DNA from: a virus
Lineage: Duplodnaviria > Heunggongvirae > Uroviricota > Caudoviricetes
Virus record (IMG/VR): IMGVR_UViG_3300037067_004861
Strand: one strand, 5' to 3'
Length of the DNA stretch: 64,000 nt
Under the pieces are notes generated by a model. That model searched no databases. It was not told the origin of the DNA and saw nothing but the letters and a program-made list of their open reading frames with translations. Both the position numbers and the translations under genes were made by a program. How positions within the stretch are numbered: the stretch's first letter is position 1; every line of letters begins with the position of its first letter. Below, piece after piece: positions 1-12,478 of this stretch.

Positions 1-65
1 GGCTATGCAATAGCTGCATTCGTTATAATTCTGGCAATTGACGTTAGCCATGCTCTTGCCTCTTA

Positions 66-312
66 TGATTGTAGTATCCCTGATTGTAGTATCCCTGATT
101 GTAGTATCCCTGATTGTAGTATCCCTGGTTGTAGTATCCCTGATTGTAGTATCCCTGATTGTAGTATCCCTGATTGTAGTATCCCTGATTGTAGTATCCC
201 TGGTTGTAGTATCCCTGATTGTAGTATCCCTGATTGTAGTATCCCTGATTGTAGTATCCCTGATTGTAGTATCCCTGGTTGTAGTATCCCTGGTTGTAGT
301 ATCAGGGAGTCC
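66..312. repeat. Tandem array of a 15-bp unit (gattgtagtatccct, with a G variant ggttgtagtatccct), about 16 copies arranged in a 75-bp higher-order period (DDDDG x3)
   Basis: Direct reading; ORFs 38..340(+) and 63..359(-) are periodic translations of this array. Confidence 0.9.
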
Positions 313-317
313 GGGAA

Positions 318-345
318 TCCTGGAATCCTGGAATCACTGATTCCT
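318..345. promoter_or_regulatory. Cluster of GGAATCC / GAATCAcTGATTC half-sites; member of the palindromic motif family GGAATCC-N-GGATTCC
   Basis: ggaatcctggaatcctggaatcactgattcc; related palindromes at 988, 1111, 4351 and 4946. Confidence 0.4.
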
Positions 346-514
346 AGAGGGTGACGCATACCTTGGCGTAGAAGCCCTCGCGTTCATCGTCTCCCTCTTG
401 ATAGGGGTCGATGATGAAACGAGAGGGGCCAGCCAACCACACTCCAACACCGCGTTGCAGTTCTTGACTGAGAACGGCGGCTGCCCGCCTAGCCTCATCA
501 TAGGTAGCGTACAT
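344..514 (-). CDS. Small hypothetical protein (about 56 aa); ends ...VTL* with GTCACCCTCTAGGA at the gene junction
   Basis: ATG at 514 preceded by aggagg-like RBS (ctaggaggaaagacc); same strand as neighbours; below the 60-aa ORF-track cutoff. Confidence 0.3.
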   Translation of the reverse strand: MYATYDEARRAAAVLSQELQRGVGVWLAGPSRFIIDPYQEGDDEREGFYAKVCVTL

Positions 515-525
515 GGTCTTTCCTC

Positions 526-855
526 CTAGAGGGTGACACGCAGGACGCCACCGTTAGGGCTATCGCTCAGAGCAATCATGGCGTATCGGCGTTGTCTACG
601 TTTGAAGTAGGCTATGGCCCGTTCGATCGTCCAGGGCTCCTGGAGCGGGATGCGGTAACTCTTGGGGCCGGCCTCAAGGATCATCGTGTTGGCTGTAACG
701 GTTGCGTTCATCGTAGTGCCCTCCAAGATAGACGTACTAACGGAAGAGGTGGTCGTTCCTAGCAAAAAAGGAAGCTTGGGCCCGTTTCTCTTCGGCACGC
801 AGGTATCGGGGAATCCTAGATTCACGACGTCGCTCGGGCAAGTAGCGGGCGACAA
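526..855 (-). CDS. Hypothetical protein; C-terminus ...RVTL*; stop is followed by a GGAGG RBS for the 344..514 ORF
   Basis: ORF track; GC-rich block; start uncertain (alternative frame 737..901 encodes a 54-aa membrane peptide coupled by ATGA to 898..1131). Confidence 0.35.
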   Translation of the reverse strand: MSPATCPSDVVNLGFPDTCVPKRNGPKLPFLLGTTTSSVSTSILEGTTMNATVTANTMILEAGPKSYRIPLQEPWTIERAIAYFKRRQRRYAMIALSDSPNGGVLRVTL

Positions 856-897
856 CCAAAGCTAGGACAGCCAAGATAGCGGAGACGGTCAAAGTAG

Positions 898-1131
898 TCA
901 TGGTTTGTCCTCCCTTTCTACTTCAACTATACCACGGAATCGGTGGTTGTCAAGTCTTTTTAAGAAAGAAAAGGATTTTAATATCCAAGAATCCGGGAAT
1001 CCCGGATTCTTTACAATCCTAGGCATGGGTGGATTGTTGTCGATCCATCCGGTGCAACCAGTCAAATCTTGGCAACCTATGCAACCTATGCAATCGGTGC
1101 AATCTCCACAATCCAGGATTCCCGGCTTCAC
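898..1131 (-). CDS. Cys-rich protein with CGDCTDCIGCIGC...GCTGWIDNNPP motif; related to 1468..1722 and 9517..9768; GTG start
   Basis: Shares the G[KC]TG[WY]xxNxPP tail with the other Cys-rich ORFs. The C-terminal 40 aa read through the palindromic DNA motif, so the reading frame or extent is doubtful. Confidence 0.3.
   Translation of the reverse strand: MKPGILDCGDCTDCIGCIGCQDLTGCTGWIDNNPPMPRIVKNPGFPDSWILKSFSFLKRLDNHRFRGIVEVEREDKP
988..1012. promoter_or_regulatory. Perfect 12-1-12 palindrome AAGAATCCGGGA-a-TCCCGGATTCTT; candidate operator
   Basis: Direct reading; belongs to the GGAATCC-N-GGATTCC motif family. Confidence 0.45.
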
Positions 1132-1411
1132 GGTTACATGCGTTTCTCGATTACACGCATCTTTGACGCTATTTTAATTGCTTCTTTTTTTCAAAAATGG
1201 CGAATCTTTGGGAATCCTTCGTAGCTGATTCCTGTTGAACGTCGCTAACGAGGCGACGGAGGGCCACTAATTCCTCAAGGCCCTGGGCCAAGCCCGCCCA
1301 GGTAGCTTGGCGAGGAGGAAGAGAGCAGACACGTTCGATGCGTTTACTGTCAATCATGGTACCCTCTCCCCTTCTACTCAACTCTACCACATTGCCCAGC
1401 CTTGTCAAGGA

Positions 1412-1435
1412 TATTCTGATAAAAATATCAGAATA
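1412..1435. promoter_or_regulatory. 10-4-10 palindrome TATTCTGATA-aaaa-TATCAGAATA next to a TTGACA hexamer
   Basis: Direct reading; intergenic between 1169..1408 and 1468..1722. Confidence 0.35.
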
Positions 1436-1467
1436 TCACAACCCAGGTTGCTATTATGACAATAATA

Positions 1468-1722
1468 TCATTTCCGTGGTTTGTTCCGATAGTAGCCCGT
1501 CTTGCCAACCAGCTCAAAACATTCGGCACAATCGACACAATCCACACAATCCTCACAGTCACTGCAGAAGTCACAATTGGTACATCTCTTGCATCGCTCA
1601 CTTTTGCTACAAAGTGTGCAATCCGTACAATCCCTACAACTAACACAACCAGCACAATTCTCGCAGTCCCCACAATACTGCGAATCCGGACAATCGAGAC
1701 ATTTGATATTAGTATCAGACAT
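1468..1722 (-). CDS. Cysteine-rich repeat protein, (DCxxC)n, about 24 Cys in 84 aa; C-terminal GKTGYYRNKPRK
   Basis: ORF track; CxxC periodicity every 3 residues; paralog of 9517..9768. Confidence 0.55.
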   Translation of the reverse strand: MSDTNIKCLDCPDSQYCGDCENCAGCVSCRDCTDCTLCSKSERCKRCTNCDFCSDCEDCVDCVDCAECFELVGKTGYYRNKPRK

Positions 1723-1786
1723 GGTACAATCCGTAAACAGAGAAAGAGGGGCAGCCTAGGTTTCCTAGGCTGCCCCTCCGAATGGG

Positions 1787-2821
1787 TTAGGCGTTGACTA
1801 CCTCTTTCGAGGCTTCCATAGCCTCCTGCAGAAGGGTATCAATCTCAACGTCGCCAACGTGTCGGCGGAGAGTGGCGAGGGCCGACGCCGCAATCTCCAA
1901 GGAGACGGCGTAATCGTCACAATCCGTCAACGTCTCCCCGCCCTGCCCGGTTGCCGCCAAGAGGACTCTCTTGACAATCTCCGATCGGGCCGTTTGGCCA
2001 CGGTCAACCGCCTGCTTGGGGGTAAGGCTCTTGGCCGTCTGGGTGGCCTCGTCCCCCTTGTCCTTGGGGGACATCACCTCATCCCACGCTACACGGAATA
2101 GGGGGCCGTCGCCCGCCGGGTAGTTAGCGTATTCCTTGCCAAACACGCCGAACAGACCGTTGATCTTCTGCCATTGCATCGGTGTGGATTTTGGCGAATA
2201 CACCGCTTTTTCCATTTCCGATTGAACGAATTGGGGCAGCCGGGCCAGGTTGGCACGAATCTGCACATAGCTCCGATTGGGGGCACCGGGGGTTTTGCCT
2301 TTGGTGTGGAAGATGCCGAGGATAGTGGCAATCTCCGCCTGCCCCTCTCCGATGCCAACAAGCTGCCGGATAGCCAAAAACTGGCTCCACTGGTCCAACG
2401 GCTCCCGGTCGGCGGCTGGGTCGTGGTCGATCCGGAGTCGGGTTTCCTCCGCTTCGGTGAGGCCCTTGTAAACGATACAGGGCACCTTCCCACCACCCAG
2501 AACCTCGGCGTAGGTGCCGGGCTCATTGTCCCGCAAAAATTGCAGGCTCTTGGCCCTCCGGTTGCCCCTCAAAACGAGATACTGGCCGTCGCTCTTCTCA
2601 CTCACCATAAGCGTCGAATCGGGCTGCCAGCCGTGCCTCTTGATGAGGTCGATCATGCCGGGAAGGTTGTAATTACGCTCGTCTCGGGGGTTGCCCCCGA
2701 AAATGAGGGCGTCAACCGGAACAAGCGTCGTCGTCTGCTTAGCCATTTCAATCACTCCAAACAAAACAAAGGGAACAAGGGGAACAAAGGGGAGAGGAAT
2801 GATATTATAATCAATCCTCAA
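1787..2821 (-). CDS. ParB-like N-terminal (sulfiredoxin-fold) nuclease-domain protein; likely true start at Met26 (about nt 2746, MAKQTTT)
   Basis: LVLRGNRR motif (ParB GxxRxxA box); GC-rich codon usage unlike most of the window; promoter-like TGATTATAATATC at 2800. Confidence 0.6.
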   Translation of the reverse strand: MRIDYNIIPLPFVPLVPFVLFGVIEMAKQTTTLVPVDALIFGGNPRDERNYNLPGMIDLIKRHGWQPDSTLMVSEKSDGQYLVLRGNRRAKSLQFLRDNEPGTYAEVLGGGKVPCIVYKGLTEAEETRLRIDHDPAADREPLDQWSQFLAIRQLVGIGEGQAEIATILGIFHTKGKTPGAPNRSYVQIRANLARLPQFVQSEMEKAVYSPKSTPMQWQKINGLFGVFGKEYANYPAGDGPLFRVAWDEVMSPKDKGDEATQTAKSLTPKQAVDRGQTARSEIVKRVLLAATGQGGETLTDCDDYAVSLEIAASALATLRRHVGDVEIDTLLQEAMEASKEVVNA

Positions 2822-3023
2822 ATTGCTGTATATCCTTACAAACGATCAGAACGTAAGAGGCCACGTATCCGAAAGCCGCCGATGCCAGGGCACGGAAGGG
2901 GTCAAAATCATTGTGAACGGCACTAACCGCGAAAACCGTCGACAACAGAGCAAACGGAAGAGTCGCCAAAATCGAGATAACCTGCATTGTCGGCCTCACT
3001 AGGAAAAGTGATACTATTGTCAA
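2811..3023 (-). CDS. Small hydrophobic hypothetical protein (two predicted TM segments)
   Basis: ORF track; minus-strand array. Confidence 0.35.
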   Translation of the reverse strand: MTIVSLFLVRPTMQVISILATLPFALLSTVFAVSAVHNDFDPFRALASAAFGYVASYVLIVCKDIQQFED

Positions 3024-3220
3024 TTGTTATCCTCACCAGTCACAACCCGGATAACCGGATGCCCATCGTCGAGCACGCCACTGGCAACAGAGGCTTGGCT
3101 AAGGCCGGCTGCAAATAGATCATCATCGGTATCATCCATGGAAACCGTTACAGTGCAGTCCAATTGCCACGGTTGCAACAATTGCAACGCCGAGAGTAGT
3201 TCGCGGTAGGTTGGCAACAC
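3020..3220 (-). CDS. Small acidic hypothetical protein
   Basis: ORF track; lies downstream of a consensus promoter at 3271..3298; 4-nt start/stop overlap with 2811..3023. Confidence 0.4.
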   Translation of the reverse strand: MLPTYRELLSALQLLQPWQLDCTVTVSMDDTDDDLFAAGLSQASVASGVLDDGHPVIRVVTGEDNN

Positions 3221-3270
3221 TTTCCGATACCCCTCTTGTGGGTGGTGTGGTAACTCTCGGCCTCTACTCC

Positions 3271-3298
3271 ATTATACCATGGCCTGGCATCGTGTCAA
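3271..3298 (-). promoter_or_regulatory. Sigma70-type promoter on the minus strand: TTGACA-16 nt-TATAAT
   Basis: Reverse complement reads ttgacacgatgccaggccatggtataat, with both hexamers consensus; upstream of 3020..3220. Confidence 0.65.
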
Positions 3299-3329
3299 GA
3301 GGAATTGTAAAGATTCCAGGAACCACCCA

Positions 3330-3668
3330 TTAGAGGGGTAGTTCTTCCACCAGCCACGAACTACTATCCTGATCGTAGGAACCGTTTTGATCCCCATGAT
3401 TGACAGCGTCGTAATTGCCGCGAAGAACGGAATCCCGGGCCTCATCGCTATGAGTGGCATAAACTGTGTAAACGGAATAACTCACACTTGGAACCGACAC
3501 GATGAAGCGCCTGAGTCCGGCAGCCTTGGCGAACCTCTCGGGGACGAACCGTGGGTTGGCTATCGAGGCCACGTCCATCACGGCATCGGCAATTGCCTGT
3601 TTGTTCATTTTATCCGGTTCATCCAGGATAATCCGAGCAAACTGCACTAAGTCTTTTTTCGTTAGCAT
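3330..3668 (-). CDS. Hypothetical protein (112 aa)
   Basis: ORF track. Confidence 0.4.
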   Translation of the reverse strand: MLTKKDLVQFARIILDEPDKMNKQAIADAVMDVASIANPRFVPERFAKAAGLRRFIVSVPSVSYSVYTVYATHSDEARDSVLRGNYDAVNHGDQNGSYDQDSSSWLVEELPL

Positions 3669-3672
3669 AGGT

Positions 3673-3948
3673 TCACTCCATATATTCGGAAGAATTGAGT
3701 GAGGCCGTTAAAGTCGCTACATCCGGAACCTTGAGAATCAAGAACCGCTCGATGTCCAGGGGCGACCATTCCTCGCCGGTGGCATCCTCAGTGATAGCCT
3801 GCACATTCCGCAAACCATGCAGCATCACTACAACCCTCAATGCCTCGCCGAGGGTCATGGACTCGATGGTGTGGGTGCTCTCGGCACCGGGCTGTTTGAG
3901 AGCGGAGCGGGATCGTTGGACGCGAAGAGAGAACCGTTGCAACGTCAT
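3673..3948 (-). CDS. Hypothetical protein (91 aa)
   Basis: ORF track; lies downstream of the promoter at 3999..4027. Confidence 0.4.
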   Translation of the reverse strand: MTLQRFSLRVQRSRSALKQPGAESTHTIESMTLGEALRVVVMLHGLRNVQAITEDATGEEWSPLDIERFLILKVPDVATLTASLNSSEYME

Positions 3949-3998
3949 CGTAGATCATCCTAGGATATGAGGAAGAGGGTGTTTGCCCCGACACCACT

Positions 3999-4027
3999 AT
4001 CCTACCATGGCTAGGGCCAGGTGTCAA
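3999..4027 (-). promoter_or_regulatory. Sigma70-type promoter on the minus strand: TTGACA-17 nt-TAGGAT; paralogous to the promoter at 3271..3298 (shared ACCATGGC...GTGTCAAGA context)
   Basis: Reverse complement reads ttgacacctggccctagccatggtaggat. Confidence 0.55.
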
Positions 4028-4081
4028 GAAGAAAACCGGTGGAATTGTTTGTTTCGATTCTAAGGGCAGTATATTCTACAG

Positions 4082-4172
4082 CCAGGTGCCAGGTGCCAGG
4101 TGTCCGGTGTCCGGTGTCCGGTGTCCGGTGTCCGGTGTCCGGTGTCCGGTGTCCGGTGTCCGGTGTCCGGTG
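4082..4172. repeat. Heptamer tandem repeat: (ccaggtg)x3 then (tccggtg) about x10
   Basis: Direct reading; ORF 4021..4479 is its translation artefact. Confidence 0.9.
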
Positions 4173-4220
4173 GGATTATGACAACATAGGTTTGATATTT
4201 TACACACCCTTTAGCGGGGT

Positions 4221-4350
4221 AGGGATTGTAACAATAATAGGGATTGTAACAACAATAGGGATTGTAACAATAATAGGGATTGTAACAATAATAATGATTT
4301 TAAGGATTGTAGTGATTTTAAGGATTATTACGGTTATTACGGTTGATTTT
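4221..4350. repeat. 18-bp tandem repeats (agggattgtaacaataat, x4) followed by shorter gattttaaggatt and ttattacgg repeats
   Basis: Direct reading. Confidence 0.85.
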
Positions 4351-4372
4351 AGAATCCAGGATTCACTGATTC

Positions 4373-4476
4373 CTATACGCACACCTACCCCGGCGCTCCC
4401 GGGCAGAACGAGAATCGTACTTTCAAAGCATAACTATACGCACACCTACCCCGGCGCTCCCGGGCAGAACGAGAAT
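4373..4476. repeat. Two copies of a 43-bp direct repeat (tatacgcacacctaccccggcgctcccgggcagaacgagaat), each holding a CCCGG-cgctc-CCGGG hairpin, separated by about 20 nt
   Basis: Direct reading. Confidence 0.85.
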
Positions 4477-4718
4477 TGAAAATGTAAAGAAAATGATGAT
4501 TTTGAAAATTGATTTTCAAATCATAATGTCATAATAATGAGAACACTATTGGACAATGGTTAATCTCTTATGACGCTAGAACGCCGTCTCACGCCCTCCA
4601 ACGCCCCAATGGCTCCCAAGACCAAAATGGGAAATGGGCTCCCTAGGCACGCAGCTAGGGCCCTTAAAAGGGAATCCGTAGCCGTGGCCACGGAAGCCGC
4701 GAGGGGTAGCCGGGAAGT

Positions 4719-4812
4719 CCATAAATAATAATACTTTTTCCTATTCCCCTATAGGGCATTTTTATTAGAAAGAGCCCTATAGGGGAATAGGAAAAAGTAT
4801 TATTATTTATGG
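4719..4812. repeat. Perfect inverted repeat with 38-bp arms (ccataaataataatactttttcctattcccctatagggc) and a 17-nt spacer; cruciform or hairpin-forming
   Basis: Right arm 4774..4812 is the exact reverse complement of left arm 4719..4756. Confidence 0.9.
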
Positions 4813-4945
4813 AGAGGCTAAGTCTAGGCTACGGCTAGACTTACGGAATTATACTGTTTTTATGTCCACCTTCACATAACTATTGTCCAATAGTGAACTC
4901 ATCATTATTTGGCCTTTTAGAGCTTTTTAGAGCTTTTAACGAAAA

Positions 4946-4974
4946 GCAGGAATCCAGGATTCCTGGATTCCTGC
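4946..4974. promoter_or_regulatory. Palindrome gcaGGAATCCaGGATTCCtggattcctgc; strongest copy of the GGAATCC-N-GGATTCC motif
   Basis: Direct reading. Confidence 0.45.
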
Positions 4975-4994
4975 AACAATTAAACTAAGAATTA

Positions 4995-5354
4995 TTAAAC
5001 AATTCTTTTCGTCAGCTCAGGAAGTGCAACCTCAGTAATAAGATTATTCTCAACTAGGAGGTCAACAATCTCAATGGCTACGCCGTCAACAAACGCTTCT
5101 TCATTAAGAACCACTTCTTTTAAAAGCATGGGGTTGCGATCCAAGACTCCGTGAATCAACTCGTGGATCAAGGATTCAAGGATGCACCGATTCGGTTGCT
5201 CAGTACATACTCTAATGGTCCTGCTATTATAATCAATATAACCTAAGTACTTCTTGTCTTCACAGTTAATAACCGTGGGTACTTCAGCACTCTGAGCCAC
5301 ATATTCAATAGTGTAATCCACACCCCTAATAGTAATAGCAGTAGGTAGTTTCAT
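4995..5354 (-). CDS. Putative zinc metallopeptidase (HExxH: LIHELIHGV), ImmA/IrrE- or SprT-like
   Basis: HELIH motif in a 119-aa protein. Confidence 0.4.
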   Translation of the reverse strand: MKLPTAITIRGVDYTIEYVAQSAEVPTVINCEDKKYLGYIDYNSRTIRVCTEQPNRCILESLIHELIHGVLDRNPMLLKEVVLNEEAFVDGVAIEIVDLLVENNLITEVALPELTKRIV

Positions 5355-5395
5355 AATTATTCTTTATCCTGTTTTGATACTATTATTATTATTTC

Positions 5396-5668
5396 TTATT
5401 TAATGTTCTTTACGAAATCAGTAATCATTGGAACCAATGATGTTAGGCCACCACTAAAATACATGGCTGCAATTACTACGGCAATCACTGCCAGTGAAAT
5501 GAAACTCCATTTCCTTTCCTTGGCTACCGTAGCACGGGCTTCAACAATAGCCTTACGGCCTTCTAACCTTGTCTTCATACGCTCTGTCCGTATTGTTGAA
5601 AACTTTTTATCTGTTTTTACAGCATCATTGTCTTCACTCTTGGATCGACGATTCCTAAAAATTCCCAT
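5396..5668 (-). CDS. Hypothetical protein with basic N-terminus and a C-terminal TM segment
   Basis: ORF track. Confidence 0.4.
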   Translation of the reverse strand: MGIFRNRRSKSEDNDAVKTDKKFSTIRTERMKTRLEGRKAIVEARATVAKERKWSFISLAVIAVVIAAMYFSGGLTSLVPMITDFVKNIK

Positions 5669-5695
5669 TTGCTTTTCCTTGTTAATTACTTACTT

Positions 5696-5872
5696 TTAAG
5701 AAACAAAAGACTCTGCTTCCCACCAATCCCCGCAATAGCCATTATAATAGCGATACTGGATGGTAGCAAATTCCAGCCACCTCCAATCGTCTTTTAAACA
5801 TAAGGGAAGAAATAAGAACCTTCTCCTGATTTTAATATCTCCACACTTTAGTGGTTCATATTTGTATCTCAT
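5696..5872 (-). CDS. Small hypothetical protein (58 aa), paralog of 5936..6106 (MRYKYEP...GDIKIRRRFLFLP...)
   Basis: Manual translation; the two ORFs align (GDIKIR.rFLFLPL.L.d.W.WL.F.TI.YRYY.GY.G.WW.AE); below the ORF-track cutoff. Confidence 0.4.
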   Translation of the reverse strand: MRYKYEPLKCGDIKIRRRFLFLPLCLKDDWRWLEFATIQYRYYNGYCGDWWEAESFVS

Positions 5873-5877
5873 AGTTT

Positions 5878-5952
5878 TCTTAAACCTTAAACCTTAAACC
5901 TTAAACCTTAAACCTTAAACCTTAAACCTTAAACCTTAAACCTTAAACCTTA
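5878..5952. repeat. Heptamer tandem repeat (aacctta), about 10 copies; overlaps the 3' end and stop of ORF 5936..6106
   Basis: Direct reading; a shorter copy sits at 6106..6125. Confidence 0.9.
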
Positions 5953-6106
5953 AAACTGTCTCGGCGTTCCAATAGTTTCCGCTATAACCTTCGTAATAAC
6001 GATACAGAATCGTTACAAACTGCAGCCACCACCATTTACCATCTAAATACAGTGGTAAGAACAGGAACTTATCCCTGATTTTAATATCACCGTCTTTGTA
6101 TTTCAT
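5936..6106 (-). CDS. Small hypothetical protein (56 aa), paralog of 5696..5872
   Basis: Manual translation MKYKDGDIKIRDKFLFLPLYLDGKWWWLQF... Confidence 0.4.
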   Translation of the reverse strand: MKYKDGDIKIRDKFLFLPLYLDGKWWWLQFVTILYRYYEGYSGNYWNAETVLRFKV

Positions 6107-6122
6107 TCTTAATCCTTAAACC

Positions 6123-6503
6123 TTAATCCATAATCCTGGGACCATTGGCTACGTCATTATATTCCACTAACTTATAGAGCTTGGTGTTACCCTTATTATG
6201 GCTTTTCAAATACTCTTCGGTAAGAGCAGATGCCTCTTCATAATCGTTACCTCGCCATATACAAACACCGTCTTCATTAGTAATAACGTAATTATTGCTT
6301 TCTATTTTAAGATTCCGATGATCCACTACCTTAGCGTAACAGGTTTCCATGGTAATATTGGCCTCTGAGAAGACTGCCTCTAGGCTAGCATCAGCACATG
6401 CCTGCCCGAAACTATCGTAGAGGTGGATAGCTAATGTACTCTTACTAAAATAGTCACGAACTATTACGGCATAAGTCTTACCATTATTATGCCTGTCTTT
6501 CAT
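6123..6503 (-). CDS. Hypothetical protein (126 aa)
   Basis: ORF track; 4-nt overlap with the GNAT gene. Confidence 0.45.
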   Translation of the reverse strand: MKDRHNNGKTYAVIVRDYFSKSTLAIHLYDSFGQACADASLEAVFSEANITMETCYAKVVDHRNLKIESNNYVITNEDGVCIWRGNDYEEASALTEEYLKSHNKGNTKLYKLVEYNDVANGPRIMD

Positions 6504-6955
6504 AAGTACACTCCTCTTTCAAAGACATAGCCGTCGCGCCCATCCGGATAGAGATTTGATCTAACGCTAACGGCGTTCCATCCCCAAGATTGCAACCACG
6601 GGATGTTGTTGTTCTCTTCATGGACTACCATGAAAAGCTGCTTAATCTTCTGCTGCTGAGCGACTCTAAGAAGATCACGATGAAGCGTAGAGCCGTGACC
6701 TTTATTCCGATATTGCTTAGCAACACACAGTTTATGAATGTGTAAAGCTATAGCTTTGTTATTAACAGTTATTACCTGATAGGAACTGAAACCAATAACA
6801 CCAAAACTATGCCTCTCTAGAGTATTATTCTCCAAGACACGGACTTTCAAATCCCCCAGATCAGCCCAAGAATTCTCCCACCATGGAAACTTGTAGCTCT
6901 CCCTATCTATCTCTTCGAGATACGGGATATGGTGGGGTTTGAAATCTGTAACCAT
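6500..6955 (-). CDS. GNAT-family N-acetyltransferase
   Basis: Acetyl-CoA binding motif QYRNKGHGSTLHRDLL (Q/RxxGxG/A). Confidence 0.6.
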   Translation of the reverse strand: MVTDFKPHHIPYLEEIDRESYKFPWWENSWADLGDLKVRVLENNTLERHSFGVIGFSSYQVITVNNKAIALHIHKLCVAKQYRNKGHGSTLHRDLLRVAQQQKIKQLFMVVHEENNNIPWLQSWGWNAVSVRSNLYPDGRDGYVFERGVYL

Positions 6956-6985
6956 ATTCTTTTCTTCTTATGATATTCTTTTCTT

Positions 6986-7159
6986 TTAATCTGAGAACGG
7001 GAAGAAGAAGTAATTGAAAACACTACCTATTGTCACACCACAAAGCATCCCATTAATGGTTGGCCAGGATAGTTCCCCTCGCAGCAGGTAAAAGCCGCAG
7101 CCACATAACACCACGGAGAACAACGCAATCGGTAGAATAGTTAGTAGTTTCTTATTCAT
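6986..7159 (-). CDS. Small membrane or lipoprotein-like protein (57 aa; signal-peptide-like N-terminus, VVLCGCG)
   Basis: Manual translation; below the ORF-track cutoff. Confidence 0.3.
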   Translation of the reverse strand: MNKKLLTILPIALFSVVLCGCGFYLLRGELSWPTINGMLCGVTIGSVFNYFFFPFSD

Positions 7160-7162
7160 TTT

Positions 7163-7232
7163 CTTGCCTTCTTAATCTTGCCTTCTTAATCTTGCCTTCT
7201 TAATCTTGCCTTCTTAATCTTGCCTTCTTAAT
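7163..7232. repeat. 14-bp tandem repeat (cttgccttcttaat) x5; overlaps the 3' end of ORF 7200..7511
   Basis: Direct reading. Confidence 0.9.
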
Positions 7233-7511
7233 CTGATCTTTGTTTTCAAAATCCTGATAATAATAGATTTTACCGTTTTCGTCCTTAATATAACCGGCTT
7301 CCGGAAATTCAAATACTCTTCCATCTTCTAGAGCCCCGGCGTCTTGGTACAATTCCGCAAGAAGTTTACTAATCTTCTTAATCTTTGATTTTAACATCTT
7401 GTCGTCAGCTAGAATATGATCTACGATCTCTCTTTCAAAGATATCCATAACAAGATAAGCACGGTCGGTCATCTCGTGATAGTGCCATCTATCTAGTGGT
7501 GTTTTATTCAT
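7200..7511 (-). CDS. Hypothetical protein; C-terminus is encoded by the tandem repeat
   Basis: ORF track. Confidence 0.4.
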   Translation of the reverse strand: MNKTPLDRWHYHEMTDRAYLVMDIFEREIVDHILADDKMLKSKIKKISKLLAELYQDAGALEDGRVFEFPEAGYIKDENGKIYYYQDFENKDQIKKARLRRQD

Positions 7512-7521
7512 ATTTCTTCTT

Positions 7522-7704
7522 TCAACGATCTTGGATGTTTGGTATGTACACGTCTCCTGACGTTTCGCAATTAGGACATATGATATTATAATCTACAGCC
7601 TGGGTGCCTAGTGGTATCTCCACTTGTGAGCGTCGGTGACAGTTTGAGCAGCCTATAACCATGGAATAAGTAGTCTTTACTTCTTTCGGCTTCTTAAAGA
7701 ACAT
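7522..7704 (-). CDS. Small zinc-ribbon protein (CSNCH...CPNCE)
   Basis: Two CxxC pairs. Confidence 0.4.
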   Translation of the reverse strand: MFFKKPKEVKTTYSMVIGCSNCHRRSQVEIPLGTQAVDYNIICPNCETSGDVYIPNIQDR

Positions 7705-7710
7705 ATTTTA

Positions 7711-8652
7711 TTATCCCCTAGTCATGTCATTAAAGAGCTGGTCATCGCCGTTATCCGTAATAGAACTGTCCAAAGCTAGGCATCGTGCAGCGCTTTCCTC
7801 TTCTGATAAATCCCTGAAAATCCAACCACTCAGAATCACGTCCCAAGCATTGCTTATGTTAATGAACAATGCGTCTTGGTATTCCGGTGATATCCGCAGC
7901 CGATGGGTTGCGAACCGCAGCCGGGAGGCCGGACCACATATCTGGTCAATACCCGTAATCATGTCCGGCGATCCAATTGGCTCGCCAAGAAGCCATGAAT
8001 AAATAGACAACTGGTCCGCCCAGCCCCTATCCCCGTCTTCTAGGTGCATGGCGATATTGATATAAACGCCACGAACCTTTTGGAGATGGCAGTCCTTATG
8101 AATCTTGTAATCCACGCCGCCGTTTTCACGGAGCTTCACGAAGCCACGCATAGGACTCTTTAACGAATTACTACAGTAGCCGTTGACTTTCCAATCATAA
8201 ATGACCCGAGCCCCGTCTTCATTGATAAAGAAAATATCAGGCTTACCTAAGAGAGGCACACCCTCGATATCTCCCTTGATACTAAACTCGAATCGAGGAG
8301 GCCCGACTGCGGCCTCTAGCTCCAAAAGTAAGTCTGCTAGACACCCCGTGTTCTTATAGGCTTCAAAGACCTTCTTGCCTTCTTCCCACGCCCACGTCCT
8401 GTTATGTTCCTCGACTTGGGAATTGAAAATATCCTTGAGCGCGTATCCGTGACTCTCGGCTTCCGCGGCTCCGAACAGCTTTGTATAAAGGTAACTTTTG
8501 ACGTAGGCGTCGAACGCACTACCAATACTCATTGGCTTAGTTTGCGGTTCTCTTGGCGACCGCACGTCGCTAAGGTATCTACTATAAAAGAGTTCAATAT
8601 CATCGTAGAACAGCTTAACGCTGGTTGGACTCATGTATTCCGGAAGTCTCAT
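7711..8652 (-). CDS. PD-(D/E)XK superfamily nuclease (RecB/Cas4/phage-exonuclease-like)
   Basis: Motifs IGSAFDAYVK ... GKPDIFFINEDGARVIYDWK (D...D/ExK). Confidence 0.5.
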   Translation of the reverse strand: MRLPEYMSPTSVKLFYDDIELFYSRYLSDVRSPREPQTKPMSIGSAFDAYVKSYLYTKLFGAAEAESHGYALKDIFNSQVEEHNRTWAWEEGKKVFEAYKNTGCLADLLLELEAAVGPPRFEFSIKGDIEGVPLLGKPDIFFINEDGARVIYDWKVNGYCSNSLKSPMRGFVKLRENGGVDYKIHKDCHLQKVRGVYINIAMHLEDGDRGWADQLSIYSWLLGEPIGSPDMITGIDQICGPASRLRFATHRLRISPEYQDALFINISNAWDVILSGWIFRDLSEEESAARCLALDSSITDNGDDQLFNDMTRG

Positions 8653-8680
8653 AATTATTATGCTTTCTTTTTATGCTTTC

Positions 8681-8827
8681 TTATAGGGAATAGTTGAGAG
8701 TTCTACGGACAATGTATCCTATGAGAGCAAATGGACTTAAAAGTATCACCCCTACTATCACTATTGGGCTTATAAAGATAAGAACACCTATGCCAAGATA
8801 ACCTAGGAAACGGTCAAAATTATTCAT
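8681..8827 (-). CDS. Small membrane peptide (48 aa); ATGA start/stop overlap with 8824..9060
   Basis: Manual translation. Confidence 0.3.
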   Translation of the reverse strand: MNNFDRFLGYLGIGVLIFISPIVIVGVILLSPFALIGYIVRRTLNYSL

Positions 8828-9060
8828 GCTTGCTCTATGGATAGTGTACTCTTAATCAGGAAGGCACCGGTCATATCTGTATCATAATCTTTATTATTAT
8901 CATTCTCCGGAACTATACTAGCAATATAGACGTTACAGCCCCAGTAGTATCGGCATTCATCCCAATCAAAAGTTAAAAACTCTAAACCCCTATCGCCCCA
9001 TCGGGCATAATGATAGTTAGTTAATGTGAATGGCTTCATAGTGTTAAAAATCTCTCCCAC
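8824..9060 (-). CDS. Hypothetical protein
   Basis: ORF track. Confidence 0.4.
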   Translation of the reverse strand: MGEIFNTMKPFTLTNYHYARWGDRGLEFLTFDWDECRYYWGCNVYIASIVPENDNNKDYDTDMTGAFLIKSTLSIEQA

Positions 9061-9245
9061 CTATCAATAATACGCTCCGTATCTTCGGTGATAGGACCGG
9101 GCTCCCTGTCAGCATAGGCGACTTCATCGGGGACAGCCGTAACTACAATCCCTCCGGGCTTGATAATCGTACAATTACTTCCAGGAATCTCCAACTTCGC
9201 TAATAGGGTTAGGAGATTTCGCTTACTTAGAAGGACGTGATCCAT
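9036..9245 (-). CDS. Hypothetical protein
   Basis: ORF track; TGATTATAATATC motif immediately upstream (9247..9260). Confidence 0.4.
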   Translation of the reverse strand: MDHVLLSKRNLLTLLAKLEIPGSNCTIIKPGGIVVTAVPDEVAYADREPGPITEDTERIIDRWERFLTL

Positions 9246-9278
9246 GATTATAATATCCTATTACACCTTATGATAGTT

Positions 9279-9500
9279 TTACAACTCTGTGATTTTAAGA
9301 TCAATCTTTACAATACGCATCTGCTTCTTGACATCCGGATTATAGAAATAGTTGTCATTAAGACCCCGGAGATGTTCTATTTTCTCTTTTATAGCTCTCT
9401 CACTAGGTTCTAGTTCCATTTTATATGGAGAACACATATATAAGTCAGTATAGCCTTCATGGAATAGAAAGGCATCACCCACCATTATTGTGTACATCAT
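9279..9500 (-). CDS. Hypothetical protein
   Basis: ORF track. Confidence 0.4.
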   Translation of the reverse strand: MMYTIMVGDAFLFHEGYTDLYMCSPYKMELEPSERAIKEKIEHLRGLNDNYFYNPDVKKQMRIVKIDLKITEL

Positions 9501-9516
9501 ATTACCTTTTAAAGGC

Positions 9517-9768
9517 TTACTCTTCCGGAGGCTTATTATTCACCCACCCTGTTTTCCCGCATAGTCCACTACAGTTCTTGCAGCAGTCACAGTCTTCACA
9601 GGAGTCACAGCTTACACAATCGCGACATTCGATGCAGTCGAAGCAAAGGCAGCAATCGTCGCAATTACGGCAACTGTTGCAGTCAACACAATGTGTACAC
9701 TCTTCACAGTCATAGCATGATAGGCAATGCCTACAGTATCGACACCCTTGACAGTCATTATTAAACAT
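9517..9768 (-). CDS. Cysteine-rich repeat protein (CxxC)n, about 26 Cys in 83 aa; C-terminal GKTGWVNNKPPEE
   Basis: Paralog of 1468..1722. Confidence 0.55.
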   Translation of the reverse strand: MFNNDCQGCRYCRHCLSCYDCEECTHCVDCNSCRNCDDCCLCFDCIECRDCVSCDSCEDCDCCKNCSGLCGKTGWVNNKPPEE

Positions 9769-9792
9769 AATTATAACCTTTATTTTTTGATT

Positions 9793-9936
9793 TTAATAGC
9801 AGAGGAACACGACAAGAAGAATGGTTATTAACAATATGGGATGTGGACGATTACAGCACTTGGGACAATCACAGCTTTTGGGACAAATACTGCAGTCCTC
9901 ATAATTACAACAATTACTGCAACAATTATTGTACAT
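9793..9936 (-). CDS. Small Cys-rich peptide (47 aa; CC pairs, then a hydrophobic C-terminal anchor)
   Basis: Manual translation MYNNCCSNCCNYEDCSICPKSCDCPKCCNRPHPILLITILLVVFLCY. Confidence 0.3.
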   Translation of the reverse strand: MYNNCCSNCCNYEDCSICPKSCDCPKCCNRPHPILLITILLVVFLCY

Positions 9937-9946
9937 AATTTTTATT

Positions 9947-10177
9947 TTACTTTCTAACCGCGAAGTCAAGGAAAAAGGTATCCAATCTCTCCCCCTCCGG
10001 AGTCCAGAACTCCATCATCCCGTTGATATAATCTAAACTAATCGAGGGAACCTTGTCTCCAACAATATAATCATGGTTATTGCCCTCTAATGCAGTTTTG
10101 AGAGTACAATCAAGATAATTGTAGCAAAGCTCGTCGATTAGTTCACACTCTTTGGAAGTGAAAAGCTTATCTAGCAT
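9947..10177 (-). CDS. Hypothetical protein, paralog of 10223..10441 (M[LI]DKLFT...)
   Basis: ORF track; N- and C-terminal similarity between the pair. Confidence 0.4.
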   Translation of the reverse strand: MLDKLFTSKECELIDELCYNYLDCTLKTALEGNNHDYIVGDKVPSISLDYINGMMEFWTPEGERLDTFFLDFAVRK

Positions 10178-10222
10178 AGCCTTATCCTTATTTTTAATCT
10201 TTGATATTAGTCGATGATATTT

Positions 10223-10441
10223 TTAGTCGATGATATTCAACTCAATCTTTGATCTCTTCAAGACTATGCCCTCATTACCACAGAATTCGAGGATTCCATT
10301 TTCATAGTCTACGTTAATCGAGGCAACAACGTAACCCTTCTTGAATCCACTAACGTCCTTTAATAGAGTACAACTGTAGAACGAGAATAGGCAAATACCG
10401 TGCTGGCCCCAGTCATCCCAAGTAAATAGTTTGTCTATCAT
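10223..10441 (-). CDS. Hypothetical protein, paralog of 9947..10177
   Basis: ORF track. Confidence 0.4.
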   Translation of the reverse strand: MIDKLFTWDDWGQHGICLFSFYSCTLLKDVSGFKKGYVVASINVDYENGILEFCGNEGIVLKRSKIELNIID

Positions 10442-10445
10442 AGTC

Positions 10446-10790
10446 TTATTTCCATTCTGTTCTTACCTTGAAAGCAAGAATCTTATCATCTAGCTTTATG
10501 TGAGAAGTGGTATCCCAACCTAATATCAGAATCTTCAACAACCATATACATAAACTGAAAATATCGTTCTCATTCAAAAACACAAGAAGAAGATTATCCT
10601 CATGCTCTTCAAGTCTCGAACCACCCACATCCGGGATGATATTAATATCCTTGTAAATTCCTAAACAGGGATAACCAAGGGAAACTAGTTTATAAGTAAT
10701 AAAACGATTTAGCATATTTGCAGCAATGGCCCTATCCATTGTGATTTTAAGAGTCTTTCCATAGTCTTCAATAGCAGTAACGGTATTCAT
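10446..10790 (-). CDS. Hypothetical protein
   Basis: ORF track. Confidence 0.4.
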   Translation of the reverse strand: MNTVTAIEDYGKTLKITMDRAIAANMLNRFITYKLVSLGYPCLGIYKDINIIPDVGGSRLEEHEDNLLLVFLNENDIFSLCIWLLKILILGWDTTSHIKLDDKILAFKVRTEWK

Positions 10791-10794
10791 TTTA

Positions 10795-11022
10795 TTATTT
10801 TACTTTCACAACTAAACCATTAACTATTGTCACTTGGGCATACCAGGAATGCGGAGCAGGGTACCATGGACCCTCGACTGCTACTGTACCATGATTGTTA
10901 CTATTATTATCAGAACCATTATTATAGTTTAATGGTCCAGGTTGGTAAACCCGTACTTCTTCACCGGAAGCCACGGCTTCTTTCAACGCTTTCTTCGTTT
11001 TGAAATTCTTAGTGCAGTACAT
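10795..11022 (-). CDS. Hypothetical protein (75 aa; Asn/Gly-rich middle)
   Basis: ORF track. Confidence 0.4.
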   Translation of the reverse strand: MYCTKNFKTKKALKEAVASGEEVRVYQPGPLNYNNGSDNNSNNHGTVAVEGPWYPAPHSWYAQVTIVNGLVVKVK

Positions 11023-11467
11023 TTAAAACACTCCTTGGCAGATGCTTAATTAGATAACGTGCTAATTTGTAGTCCAACACGGCGGAGCAATGCGGACATT
11101 TATAGCAGGGCTCTCGTTTATCGCATGTGCAAGGCGTATGGTAAGCCAGGACATACACATCCCTAACATTGTGCGAATAGTAAGGAGAATGGTAATGGGC
11201 AGCCGCGATACGTGTGGCTAAACTATATTTCTTGGCCAAGCGTGGGGAGATTTTAAGATCAATTCTCGTTGGCTCCAAGAGCAGACGCAGGTGCTCCTCC
11301 GCGTCTTCGAGGAGACTTGTAATACACTTGTATTTCTCCTGCTTTATGAAATCCTCGGAATCGCGGAATCCTAGATTCCTGTTGACCATACGCATTGTAA
11401 ACTCGGAGCCAAGAAAAAAGAAGAAATTGAGATGACATAAGGCATAGCGTTTAACTAAATCATTCAT
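11009..11467 (-). CDS. Hypothetical protein with C-terminal Cys/His cluster (HTPCTCDKREPCYKCPHC)
   Basis: ORF track. Confidence 0.4.
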   Translation of the reverse strand: MNDLVKRYALCHLNFFFFLGSEFTMRMVNRNLGFRDSEDFIKQEKYKCITSLLEDAEEHLRLLLEPTRIDLKISPRLAKKYSLATRIAAAHYHSPYYSHNVRDVYVLAYHTPCTCDKREPCYKCPHCSAVLDYKLARYLIKHLPRSVLNVLH

Positions 11468-11669
11468 AGTAGTGCAGCCCTAATCTAGCTAGTCGGATTA
11501 AAATCTCCATGTCCACGGCATCGAAACCATAGACTATCTTATTCCTAGCGGAGTCAATATCCATACCCTCAGTGAATACAGAGTTAAAATGCTCCTTTTG
11601 TCGTGGCGTATAGTATCCATAGACTTGTTGCAGCCACCACTTCTCTTCTTGAAGCTGTTGGTTATTCAT
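11460..11669 (-). CDS. Hypothetical protein
   Basis: ORF track; TGATTATAATATC motif upstream (11683..11696). Confidence 0.4.
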   Translation of the reverse strand: MNNQQLQEEKWWLQQVYGYYTPRQKEHFNSVFTEGMDIDSARNKIVYGFDAVDMEILIRLARLGLHYYE

Positions 11670-11689
11670 CTTGTTATAACAACCTTTGA

Positions 11690-12478
11690 TTATAATATCC
11701 TCGCTGCCTTATTCGTCCAAGAATACGTCAATTCTCCATTAGGCCAGAAGATCAGTTGACGCTGTTTCCGAGGATTCACGGATTCGGTGAGGCAATTACT
11801 CACGGCGACGTTGTATCCTTGGTAATTATAAACACGGAGACCGTAATCGTACTCCAATAACAAATCCGCATAACCCTCTAAACAGTCTCTAAGCCAATCT
11901 AATGAAGAATGGAACTCCGTGGCATGACTTACTTCACGGAAGGTCGACTGCATGACTCCGGGAGTCGTGATAACATTAACCATATCCCCTAAATTAGTGA
12001 CGCCACCTTTAACCACGGTGACGTTAAGACGCACAGCCAAGCCAGCCTTGTTAGCATAAGCAATGACCTTACGATAGTCATAGTCTTCCGGGAGACCCAT
12101 TAACTGATTATTGATTATATTATCGGGATGGGCGATAGATAGGCAAAGCGTAGTGAGACCGTTCTCTTCTAATTGTGCAACTCCGGCTTCTGATAATAGG
12201 GCCCCGTTAGTCATTAACTCAATGAAGTCAAAGCGGTAACGATGCAATCGTTCCGTGTACTCTACTAAGAGGTCCCAATGCAGCGTCGGCTCACCTTTTC
12301 CGGTGAGAATCGCGGTATCCGTGATTCTATTAGCCCAGGCACAAACCCTATTGAAGCGGTGCCAATTGGGGGTTAATGTAAGATCGAAATTGGTTTTAGT
12401 TCTCTTGGCTATGCACCAAGGGCAGGAGGCGTTGCACTTCTTATCCCCAACGACAACGGAGAAAGTATCGAAATTCAT
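11690..12478 (-). CDS. Radical SAM enzyme (small; QueE-, NrdG- or PflA-activase-like)
   Basis: N-terminal CNASCPWC (CX3CX2C) and GKGEPTLH (GGEP-like) motifs. Confidence 0.6.
   Translation of the reverse strand: MNFDTFSVVVGDKKCNASCPWCIAKRTKTNFDLTLTPNWHRFNRVCAWANRITDTAILTGKGEPTLHWDLLVEYTERLHRYRFDFIELMTNGALLSEAGVAQLEENGLTTLCLSIAHPDNIINNQLMGLPEDYDYRKVIAYANKAGLAVRLNVTVVKGGVTNLGDMVNVITTPGVMQSTFREVSHATEFHSSLDWLRDCLEGYADLLLEYDYGLRVYNYQGYNVAVSNCLTESVNPRKQRQLIFWPNGELTYSWTNKAARIL

What the first reader, a model, noticed from the sequence alone, without database searches (positions are those of the whole stretch)
1468..9936. Family of small cysteine-rich (CxxC)n proteins with a conserved G[KC]TG[WY]xxNxPP tail
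ORFs 1468..1722 and 9517..9768 are about 30% cysteine with a strict three-residue Cys periodicity (DCxDCxNCxGC...) and share the C-terminal motif GKTGYYRNKP / GKTGWVNNKPP. ORF 898..1131 carries GCTGWIDNNPP after a similar Cys run, and 9793..9936 is a CC-pair peptide with a membrane anchor. I do not recognise a matching family. Candidate roles are metal or redox binding (metallothionein-like), virion or cell-surface decoration, or toxin-like peptides.
Basis: seen in the sequence. Interest (0 to 1): 0.6.

Follow-up and report, generated by a model that had tools for sequence, protein, structure and literature searches.

The report
Phage cysteine-every-third-residue mini-protein family
This phage carries at least four intact copies and one remnant of a real but undescribed family of about 85-residue proteins that have a cysteine at every third position and a conserved end-cap, are common in uncultured phages, probably fold as a thin cysteine-cored coil, and have no known function.

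Summary
ORFs 9517-9768 and 1468-1722 (minus strand) each have 21 in-phase "Cys slots". One fills them with 21 Cys, the other with 19 Cys and 2 Ser. Both end in LxGKTG[WY]xxNKP.

They belong to a real family. An exhaustive profile search found 327 relatives. I collected 95 unique proteins (96 modules) that share the cap C-x-[NDG]-C-x-[GDN]-L-x-G-K-x-G-W-[VI]-[ND]-N-x-P-P.

The cap is four more triplets in the same phase as the Cys repeat, so I read it as the last turn of the repeat and not as a separate tail.

ORF 898-1131 is only a remnant. It has no ATG, is bracketed by inverted repeats and runs through a promoter. A fourth copy is cut by the left edge of the window, and a fifth lies just beyond it.

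The family is spread across unrelated uncultured phages. One 175-kb viral contig has at least 15 clustered copies.

No Pfam or NCBIfam model covers the family. PHROG 15341, the only match, has no assigned function. I found no paper on it.

The evidence suggests, but does not prove, a 12-residue-per-turn beta-solenoid. This rests on one AlphaFold model, a lag-4 periodicity and a weak match to beetle antifreeze protein.

Function is unknown. My best guess is an intracellular, metal- or thiol-cored binding scaffold with a variable surface.

The parts
9517..9768 (-). Intact family member, 83 aa. N-cap MFNNDC, 21 consecutive Cxx triplets (C6-C66), cap L69-P81, stop two residues later.
   Evidence: PHROG 15341 E=5.9e-6. 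Packed 24 nt after the upstream ORF and 16 nt before the next one.
   Evidence: Cap logo from 96 modules; sequence read directly.
1468..1722 (-). Intact family member, 84 aa. 19 Cys plus 2 Ser fill 21 in-phase slots (residues 8-68). Cap L71-P82 at window 1477-1512.
   Evidence: PHROG 15341 E=1.3e-8. An identical protein is encoded on metagenome contig L042.
1027..1113 (-). Remnant of a family member: the last five Cxx triplets plus the cap DLTGCTGWIDNNPP, lying inside ORF 898-1131.
   Evidence: No ATG start. Bracketed by inverted repeats 982-1008 and 1110-1136. The frame continues through promoter 953-926. True members stop a median of 3 residues after the cap.
1..51 (-). N-terminus (MANVNCQNYNECSYCIA) of a further paralogue, cut by the left edge of the window.
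   Evidence: The complete 88-aa gene, ending YGLQDKTGWKDNKPRS, is on L042 3401-3667, which is 99.9% identical to window 1-3526. A fifth copy follows on L042 within ORF 3606-3962.
9793..9936 (-). 47-aa peptide with CC pairs and a hydrophobic C-terminus, directly upstream of 9517-9768. Membership in the family is not established.
   Evidence: No similar peptide was found in any of the other loci held. Six of its 10 N-terminal Cys share one phase, which is not significant.
1745..1779 (-). 16-bp GC-rich terminator-like hairpin followed by a T-run, ending 23 nt before the ATG of 1468-1722.
   Evidence: No promoter-like site was found between it and the start codon.
982..1136 (.). Pair of 27-nt inverted repeats built from GGAATCC units that bracket the remnant.
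   Evidence: pair I3, 81% complementary. GGAATCC is over-represented: 27 found against 10 expected.

Best explanation
**Shown.** The window belongs to an uncultured tailed phage. It encodes a multigene family of small stand-alone proteins built entirely from one three-residue repeat, C-x-[N/D/G].
- The repeat starts with an Asn in the Cys slot (M-x-N-x-D-C).
- It ends with four in-phase cap triplets (L-x-G | K-x-G | W-x-N | N-x-P).
- The genes are protein-coding and under purifying selection.
- They occur as diverged tandem paralogues in unrelated phages and have no conserved partner gene.

**Inferred, moderate support.** The chain winds into a thin beta-solenoid of about 12 residues (four triplets) per turn. 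Every Cys points into the core. Positions 2 and 3 form the surface and the corners. The Leu and Trp of the cap plug the open end.

**Inferred, weak support.** Most members lack a signal peptide, so the core thiols probably hold metal ions (Zn or Fe) or stay reduced, and do not form disulfides. The rigid rod with a freely variable, mostly acidic surface would then serve as a binding module that phages diversify to engage host or rival macromolecules during infection.
For: **A real, coding family**
- The exhaustive profile search found 327 hits at E<=1e-3.
- 95 unique cap-bearing proteins, carrying 96 modules, have L 98%, G 97%, W 94% and N 100% at the cap positions. They stop a median of 3 residues after the cap.
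- 24 of 37 conserved residues between the two window paralogues use different synonymous codons.
- 74% of indels between close homologues are multiples of three residues.

**Solenoid fold**
- The AlphaFold2 model of ORF 9517 has mean pLDDT 65, about 80 over residues 10-45, with a beta-bridge at every third residue.
- The best PDB sequence match is the Tenebrio antifreeze beta-helix 1EZG. From textbook knowledge, its inward-facing residues C, S, C, A are also spaced by three.
- The non-Cys positions show a lag-4-triplet (12-residue) periodicity, z=3.1 and 4.0.
- The cap is exactly four triplets.
- Position 3 is N, D or G in 61% of triplets and Pro is almost absent.

**Intracellular location**
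- The first Cys sits at a median of residue 6.

**Modular binding role**
- There are at least 15 clustered paralogues on one 175-kb viral contig and 2-6 copies on many short contigs.
- The module is fused sporadically to KilA-N, SAM lyase, Clp and Mu-type proteases, PC4 and the C-terminus of a fungal NACHT protein, where such proteins usually carry repeat sensor domains.
- No neighbour gene is shared across lineages.
- Net charge is -4 to -12 in most members.
Against: - The fold rests on one medium-confidence model. The second model, for ORF 1468, failed at pLDDT 42.
- The 1EZG match is compositionally biased (whole-sequence E=0.0034, domain E=18).
- I could not read model coordinates, so the inward orientation of the Cys was not verified.
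- Nothing here measures metal content, redox state, expression or any binding partner.
- A few members carry a lipoprotein signal or a transmembrane segment, so the location is not uniform.
- Some members are basic.
- A terminator-like hairpin directly upstream of ORF 1468, with no promoter after it, leaves its expression uncertain.
Confidence: 0.4

Rival explanations
1. Metallothionein-like metal or redox buffer. The proteins act mainly by soaking up Zn, Cu, Cd or Fe, or oxidants, in the infected cell, and have no specific macromolecular target.
For: - 23-29% Cys in an 83-84 aa protein with no signal peptide.
- CxxC spacing is a classic metal-ligand geometry.
- Weak profile matches to Zn-binding ZZ, CXXC and SWIM domains.
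Against: - No metallothionein family in Pfam matches.
- Aromatic residues and a strictly conserved cap imply a defined fold, unlike classical metallothioneins.
- Fusion to KilA-N, proteases, SAM lyase and NACHT domains is hard to explain by bulk buffering.
- So is the presence of 15 or more diverged copies in one genome.
Confidence: 0.2
2. Virion-associated or extracellular structural protein. The Cys core oxidises to a disulfide ladder, as in beetle antifreeze protein, after lysis or export, giving a very stable rod that decorates capsids, tails or the cell surface.
For: - The weak sequence match to the disulfide-laddered Tenebrio antifreeze beta-helix.
- In Campylobacter Firehammervirus phages, a broader-family member sits between the portal and ligase genes.
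- Two relatives are fused to prohead-protease domains.
- One paralogue on the 175-kb contig has a lipoprotein signal, and P0010 has a transmembrane segment.
Against: - The window copies lie among small ORFan genes 50 kb from the tail genes.
- Most members have no export signal.
- No structural-module synteny is conserved.
Confidence: 0.12
3. Precursors of ribosomally made, post-translationally modified peptides or toxins. The Cys would be converted to thiazoles or thioethers, with the cap acting as a recognition sequence. The radical SAM enzyme at 11690-12478 might be the maturase.
For: - Cys at every third residue recalls heterocycloanthracin-type cores. This is from memory, backed only by a sub-threshold hit of P0006 to TIGR03601 at E=0.81.
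- A radical SAM gene lies 1.9 kb upstream.
Against: - The radical SAM protein has no SPASM domain, and its best matches are sub-threshold MoaA-like models.
- Pfam scans of 47 window ORFs of 112 aa or more (A7) plus nine smaller neighbours found no YcaO, dehydratase, cyclase or peptidase-transporter.
- No window neighbour has a homologue at any other family locus.
- There is no leader peptide.
- The module is also fused inside large proteins.
Confidence: 0.05
4. Not genes at all. The Cys frames would be by-products of short DNA repeats, or of an ORF on the opposite strand.
For: Weak 9-nt tandem repeats are detected inside both ORFs, and other frames are also open there.
Against: - Synonymous divergence with conserved residues.
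- A conserved non-repetitive cap and stop position in 95 unique proteins from unrelated contigs.
- Same strand and tight spacing as the neighbouring genes.
Confidence: 0.02

Closest known systems
Tenebrio molitor antifreeze protein (PDB 1EZG), a disulfide-cored 12-residue beta-helix
   Same: - Small size (84 aa).
- Very high Cys content.
- Inward-facing positions spaced every three residues (C, S, C, A).
- 12-residue turns, matching the lag-4-triplet periodicity found here.
- It is the best PDB sequence match.
- Ser substitutes for Cys in two slots of ORF 1468, as it does in the beetle protein.
   Different: - The beetle protein has two Cys per turn, not four.
- It has a Thr-Cys-Thr ice-binding face, which is absent here (Thr is 15% at position 2 and 1.5% at position 3).
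- It is secreted and oxidised.
- No Pfam match to its repeat family.
- It lacks the LxGKxGWxNNxPP cap.
Metallothioneins
   Same: Small proteins with 20-30% Cys and CxxC spacing; they are plausible metal-thiolate binders.
   Different: - Here the period is a strict three residues over the whole protein.
- The N- and C-caps are conserved.
- Aromatic residues are present.
- A beta-solenoid is predicted, not metal-templated clusters.
- No Pfam hit to any metallothionein family.
PHROG 15341 and the Campylobacter Firehammervirus hypothetical proteins (CPt10_0311; IBB35 H6SUK4)
   Same: - The same (Cxx)n repeat.
- HMM match at E=1e-8.
- Foldseek match at 33% identity.
- Phage-encoded, with no assigned function.
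   Different: These have an N-terminal helix (EEAxKASxSLVNC) and no LxGKxGW cap. The window proteins belong to the capped subfamily, which my searches of cultured phages did not find.
Pentapeptide-repeat proteins (quadrilateral beta-helix, for example MfpA and Qnr)
   Same: - Short-period solenoid, among the structural neighbours of the model.
- Three such genes lie in the same window.
- Some act as DNA mimics, which offers a possible analogy for an acidic rod.
   Different: - A five-residue period with a hydrophobic core, against a three-residue period with a Cys core.
- No Pfam pentapeptide hit for the Cys proteins.
Eukaryotic 'CysRRep' cysteine-rich repeats (Daugavet et al., PMC7379824; bioRxiv 10.64898/2026.06.07.730663)
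   Same: Cysteine-rich repeats discussed in connection with phages.
   Different: The spacing is Cx6-9Cx5-7Cx8-11Cx7-8CC. They are secreted, defensin-like and almost exclusively eukaryotic. This is an unrelated family.

Membership tests
Capped (C-x-[NDG])n phage family (defined here; overlaps PHROG 15341) | An uninterrupted single-phase run of Cys slots spaced by three residues | tested here: met
   9517-9768 has 21 of 21 slots as Cys. 1468-1722 has 19 Cys plus 2 Ser in 21 slots.
Capped (C-x-[NDG])n phage family (defined here; overlaps PHROG 15341) | In-phase C-terminal cap L-x-G-[KC]-x-G-[WY]-x-x-N-x-P, followed by a stop within a few residues | tested here: met
   Both intact ORFs and the remnant carry the cap. 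The logo comes from 96 modules, and the median distance to the stop is 3 residues. The remnant fails the stop criterion.
Capped (C-x-[NDG])n phage family (defined here; overlaps PHROG 15341) | Significant profile match to other members | tested here: met
   PHROG 15341 at E=1.3e-8 and 5.9e-6. 327 library hits to the window-derived profile.
Insect antifreeze beta-helix (TmAFP type) | 12-residue repeat TCTxSxxCxxAx with a Thr ladder | tested here: not met
   No Pfam hit. There is no TCT motif. Only a biased PDB match at E=0.0034. The 12-residue periodicity is present, but weak.
Insect antifreeze beta-helix (TmAFP type) | Secreted protein with a disulfide-bonded core | not testable with these tools
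   There is no signal peptide (first Cys at residue 6 to 8). The redox state cannot be computed.
Metallothionein | Sequence match to a metallothionein family | tested here: not met
   Pfam and NCBIfam returned no metallothionein family even at E up to 10 and 1 respectively.
Metallothionein | Binds several metal ions through thiolate clusters | not testable with these tools
   Needs ICP-MS on purified protein.
RiPP precursor (thiazole/oxazole or radical-SAM modified) | A co-located maturation enzyme (YcaO, dehydrogenase, or SPASM radical SAM) and a leader peptide | tested here: not met
   Pfam scans of 47 window ORFs of 112 aa or more (A7) plus nine smaller neighbours found no such enzyme. The radical SAM protein lacks SPASM. 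No neighbour is conserved. No leader is present; the first Cys is at residue 6 to 8.
Pentapeptide repeat | A(D/N)LXX five-residue period with a Pfam PF00805 match | tested here: not met
   No hit for the Cys-rich ORFs. The three true pentapeptide proteins in the window lie elsewhere.

The most novel reading that the evidence does not exclude
The family is a new structural class: a "cysteine-ladder" beta-helix with four inward thiols per 12-residue turn. These thiols would hold one metal ion per turn, or two disulfides per turn, giving a linear stack of metal centres inside a rod about 1 nm wide. Phages, and some fungi through NACHT fusions, would use it as a hypervariable, antibody-like recognition scaffold.
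Probability: 0.15. Interest if true: 0.85.

Novelty: new variant of a known kind. Interest (0 to 1): 0.6.

Why it matters
If the fold inference holds, this would be among the shortest-period protein solenoids known, with a core made only of cysteine. That matters for three reasons:
- It is a structural curiosity.
- It could serve as a very small, rigid, freely re-surfaceable scaffold for protein engineering.
- It may be a metal-stacking motif.

Biologically, the family is widespread, fast-diversifying and multi-copy in uncultured phages, and no database names it. Families with that pattern have often turned out to be host-takeover or counter-defence proteins. The C-terminal fusion to a fungal NACHT protein hints at a recognition role across kingdoms.

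The cap motif gives a simple, specific search handle. A 39-nt degenerate pattern based on it found 35 metagenome stretches; 27 of them carried cap-bearing family ORFs and the other 8 did not match the cap pattern.

Tried and rejected
- **Curated libraries.** Pfam and NCBIfam on all four ORFs gave nothing relevant. Pfam and NCBIfam scans of 20 homologues, and Pfam alone on 105 more, showed no model covering the repeat.
- **Word-indexed homologue search.** With either intact ORF alone it found no hits. With the 31-sequence alignment it found only 14.
- **tblastn against cultured phages.** The whole ORF and the tail alone both gave nothing, probably because the low-complexity filter masks the Cys run. 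Megablast of window 1-12000 also found nothing.
- **Strict tail DNA patterns in IMG/VR.** These gave zero hits or only chance hits. One chance hit lay on the antisense strand of a collagen-like fibre gene.
- **Daugavet CysRRep repeats.** I read both papers. The Cys spacing is different and the family is unrelated.
- **RiPP idea.** No maturation enzymes were found, so I rejected it.
- **Second AlphaFold job.** The model for ORF 1468 was unusable at pLDDT 42.
- **afdb50 fold library.** Not available.
- **Foldseek against the PDB.** Nothing significant.
- **Literature.** Five full-text searches found no description of the family.
- **CC-pair peptide.** No relative was found in any locus held.


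Full report
**Setting**

The window is part of an uncultured tailed phage.
- It encodes a tape-measure protein, a family-A DNA polymerase, a primase, a helicase, an exonuclease and a ligase.
- It carries four tRNA genes.
- Almost all genes are on the minus strand.
- The polymerase is only 25% identical to its nearest cultured-phage match.
- The left 4.5 kb is 50-54% GC against about 41% elsewhere.
- That left end is not an assembly artefact. An independent metagenome contig, L042 (Ga0172381_10039552), is 99.9% identical to window 1-3526.

**Checking the observation**

All four ORFs are present on the minus strand.
- ORF 9517-9768 (83 aa, 24 Cys) has 21 consecutive Cxx triplets, C6 to C66.
- ORF 1468-1722 (84 aa, 19 Cys, which is 23% and not 30%) also has 21 slots in one phase. 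Two of its slots hold Ser.
- Both proteins end in L-x-G-K-T-G-[WY]-x-x-N-K-P.

The frame is under protein-level selection. Of 37 aligned identical residues, 24 use different synonymous codons. ORF 9517 sits 24 nt and 16 nt from its co-directional neighbours.

ORF 898-1131 contains only the last five triplets and the cap (1027-1113). It has no ATG and is bracketed by 27-nt inverted repeats. It reads on through a near-consensus promoter and overlaps the next gene's start by 4 nt. I call it a remnant.

The window's first 51 bases (minus strand) encode the N-terminus of another member. L042 shows that gene complete, and a further copy behind it. The phage therefore has at least four intact copies and one fragment.

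**The family**

Curated libraries have no model for it. PHROG 15341, of unknown function, matches at E=1e-8 and 6e-6.

An exhaustive profile search of 1.84 billion representative proteins gave 327 hits at E<=1e-3. Runs of up to 41 Cxx triplets occur among them. About 37 of the top 150 hits carry the same C-terminal motif.

A degenerate DNA pattern for the motif found:
- one 175-kb IMG/VR contig with at least 15 clustered paralogues within 21 kb;
- 35 metagenome stretches, many with 2-6 tandem copies;
- two copies in a mobile, defence-island-like region of a genome labelled Nitrosopumilaceae, next to an Mrr nuclease, an IS3 transposase and a methyltransferase.

Contexts that could be read are phage-like. 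Apart from the Cys genes, the window shares no gene with any of these loci, and no partner gene is conserved across lineages.

Broader, uncapped relatives occur in cultured Campylobacter Firehammervirus phages, where they are annotated as hypothetical proteins.

**Anatomy**

Across 3,822 triplets:
- position 2 is mostly T, K, E, I or V;
- position 3 is N (25%), D (25%) or G (10%);
- Pro is almost absent.

From 96 modules in 95 unique proteins the cap is C-x-[NDG]-C-x-[GDN]-L(98%)-x-G(83%)-K(74%)/C(14%)-x-G(97%)-W(94%)-[VI]-[ND]-N(100%)-x-P(76%)-P(63%). The stop follows a median of 3 residues later.

Written in triplets, the cap is L-x-G | K-x-G | W-x-N | N-x-P. So L, K, W and N occupy the Cys slot for exactly four more repeats.

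At the N-terminus, an Asn sits three residues before the first Cys in 27 of 48 short-headed members, and in every window copy whose N-terminus is preserved. The first Cys is at a median of residue 6, which leaves no room for a signal peptide.

Between close homologues, 62 of 84 indels are multiples of three residues.

**Fold: inference**
- AlphaFold2 on ORF 9517 gave mean pLDDT 65, about 80 over residues 10-45, with a beta-bridge at every third residue.
- Foldseek found a 33%-identical Campylobacter phage protein in BFVD and nothing significant in the PDB.
- The top PDB sequence match is the Tenebrio antifreeze beta-helix 1EZG, with a weak and biased score. From textbook knowledge, its 12-residue turn places C, S, C and A inward at three-residue spacing.
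- In line with a 12-residue turn, identity at the non-Cys positions is enriched at a lag of four triplets, z=3.1 and 4.0. The cap is also four triplets long.
- The second model, for ORF 1468, failed at pLDDT 42.
- I could not inspect model coordinates.

**Function: speculation, ranked**

The module is promiscuous. It is fused sporadically to KilA-N, SAM lyase, DUF7448, Clp and Mu-type proteases, PC4, SLH, and the C-terminus of a fungal NACHT protein.

Four features fit a rigid recognition or binding scaffold better than bulk metal buffering:
- strong paralogue expansion;
- free variation of the surface positions;
- a mostly acidic charge;
- the absence of any conserved partner gene.

Because most members are cytoplasmic, a metal-thiolate or reduced core is more likely than disulfides. 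A few members carry export or membrane signals.

The RiPP idea fails. The nearby radical SAM protein lacks a SPASM domain and has only sub-threshold matches. Pfam scans of 47 window ORFs of 112 aa or more plus nine smaller neighbours show no maturation enzymes.

The same phage also carries three tandem pentapeptide-repeat genes, another solenoid family.

**The CC-pair peptide**

ORF 9793-9936 is real as an ORF and lies in the same operon-like run. It has no relatives in any locus I hold. Its partial three-residue phasing is not significant, so I leave it unassigned.

**Comparison with known families, and novelty**

The family is not a metallothionein, not an insect antifreeze protein, not a pentapeptide-repeat protein and not a RiPP precursor; the tested defining features were not met in each case. 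It is also unrelated to the published eukaryotic CysRRep repeats, which have different spacing. Five literature searches found no description of it.

I rate it a new variant of a known kind, namely a cysteine-cored beta-solenoid. It belongs to an undescribed, widespread phage family.

**Verdict**

The structural reading is plausible but weakly supported. The function is unknown.

Noticed in passing
window 66-303: A 15-nt unit (TGATTGTAGTATCCC) is repeated 16 times, 15 nt upstream of the start codon of the edge-cut paralogue. The otherwise 99.9%-identical metagenome contig L042 has five fewer copies, so the array varies in length in nature.
   Followed up: partly
window 1-5200 (e.g. 306-335, 982-1008, 1110-1136, 4946-4974): GGAATCC units spaced 8 nt apart form palindromic elements. 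There are 27 copies in the window against 10 expected, and 11 of them lie in the first 5 kb. They bracket the gene remnant and form a terminator-like hairpin at 4946-4974.
   Followed up: partly
window 4000-4990: A gene-free kilobase sits at the GC-content boundary and is full of repeats:
- GGTGTCC x10.6 (4099-4172);
- an 18-mer x4 (4220-4293);
- a 56-nt direct repeat (4373-4489);
- a 45-nt inverted repeat (4718-4813).
It could be an origin, a packaging site or a recombination site.
   Followed up: no
window 26708-27394, 27408-28148, 28599-29399: Three tandem paralogous pentapeptide-repeat proteins (best Pfam PF00805 E=3e-52 among the three) share a C-terminal domain. A tRNA-Ile(tat) gene lies between the second and third.
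   Followed up: partly
window 11690-12478: A 262-aa radical SAM protein (motif CNASCPWC) has no SPASM domain. It gives only sub-threshold matches to MoaA, TrsS, PqqE and viperin-type models. Its substrate is unknown.
   Followed up: partly
window 5696-5872 / 5936-6106 and 9947-10177 / 10223-10441: Two further pairs of small paralogous ORFs. The first pair is separated by a heptamer array, CTTAAAC x10.9 at 5879-5954. Another 14-mer x5 array lies at 7162-7234.
   Followed up: no
L008+L010+L011 (IMGVR_UViG_3300037067_004478, 136290-157072): A 21-kb stretch of a 175-kb viral contig holds at least 15 capped Cys-triplet paralogues. One has a lipoprotein-type signal, and one is a truncated or degenerate copy.
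   Followed up: partly
P0072 (1075 aa, from the representative library): A fungal-type NACHT/NPHP3_N protein ends in the same Cys-triplet run plus the cap GLTGATGWWRNQDP, in the place where such proteins usually carry repeat sensor domains.
   Followed up: no
L016/L018 (OZ242365.1, 1584001-1600000): Two capped family genes lie about 2 kb apart in a chromosome labelled Nitrosopumilaceae, beside an Mrr nuclease, an IS3 transposase and a methyltransferase. The region is 45-51% GC.
   Followed up: partly
window, whole: The Pfam scan also shows an intein splicing domain, nucleoside diphosphate kinase, dCMP deaminase, a sigma-70 region 2 protein, a Band 7 protein, two DNA methyltransferases, two ParB-like proteins, and NYN and Rho_N domains.
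   Followed up: no
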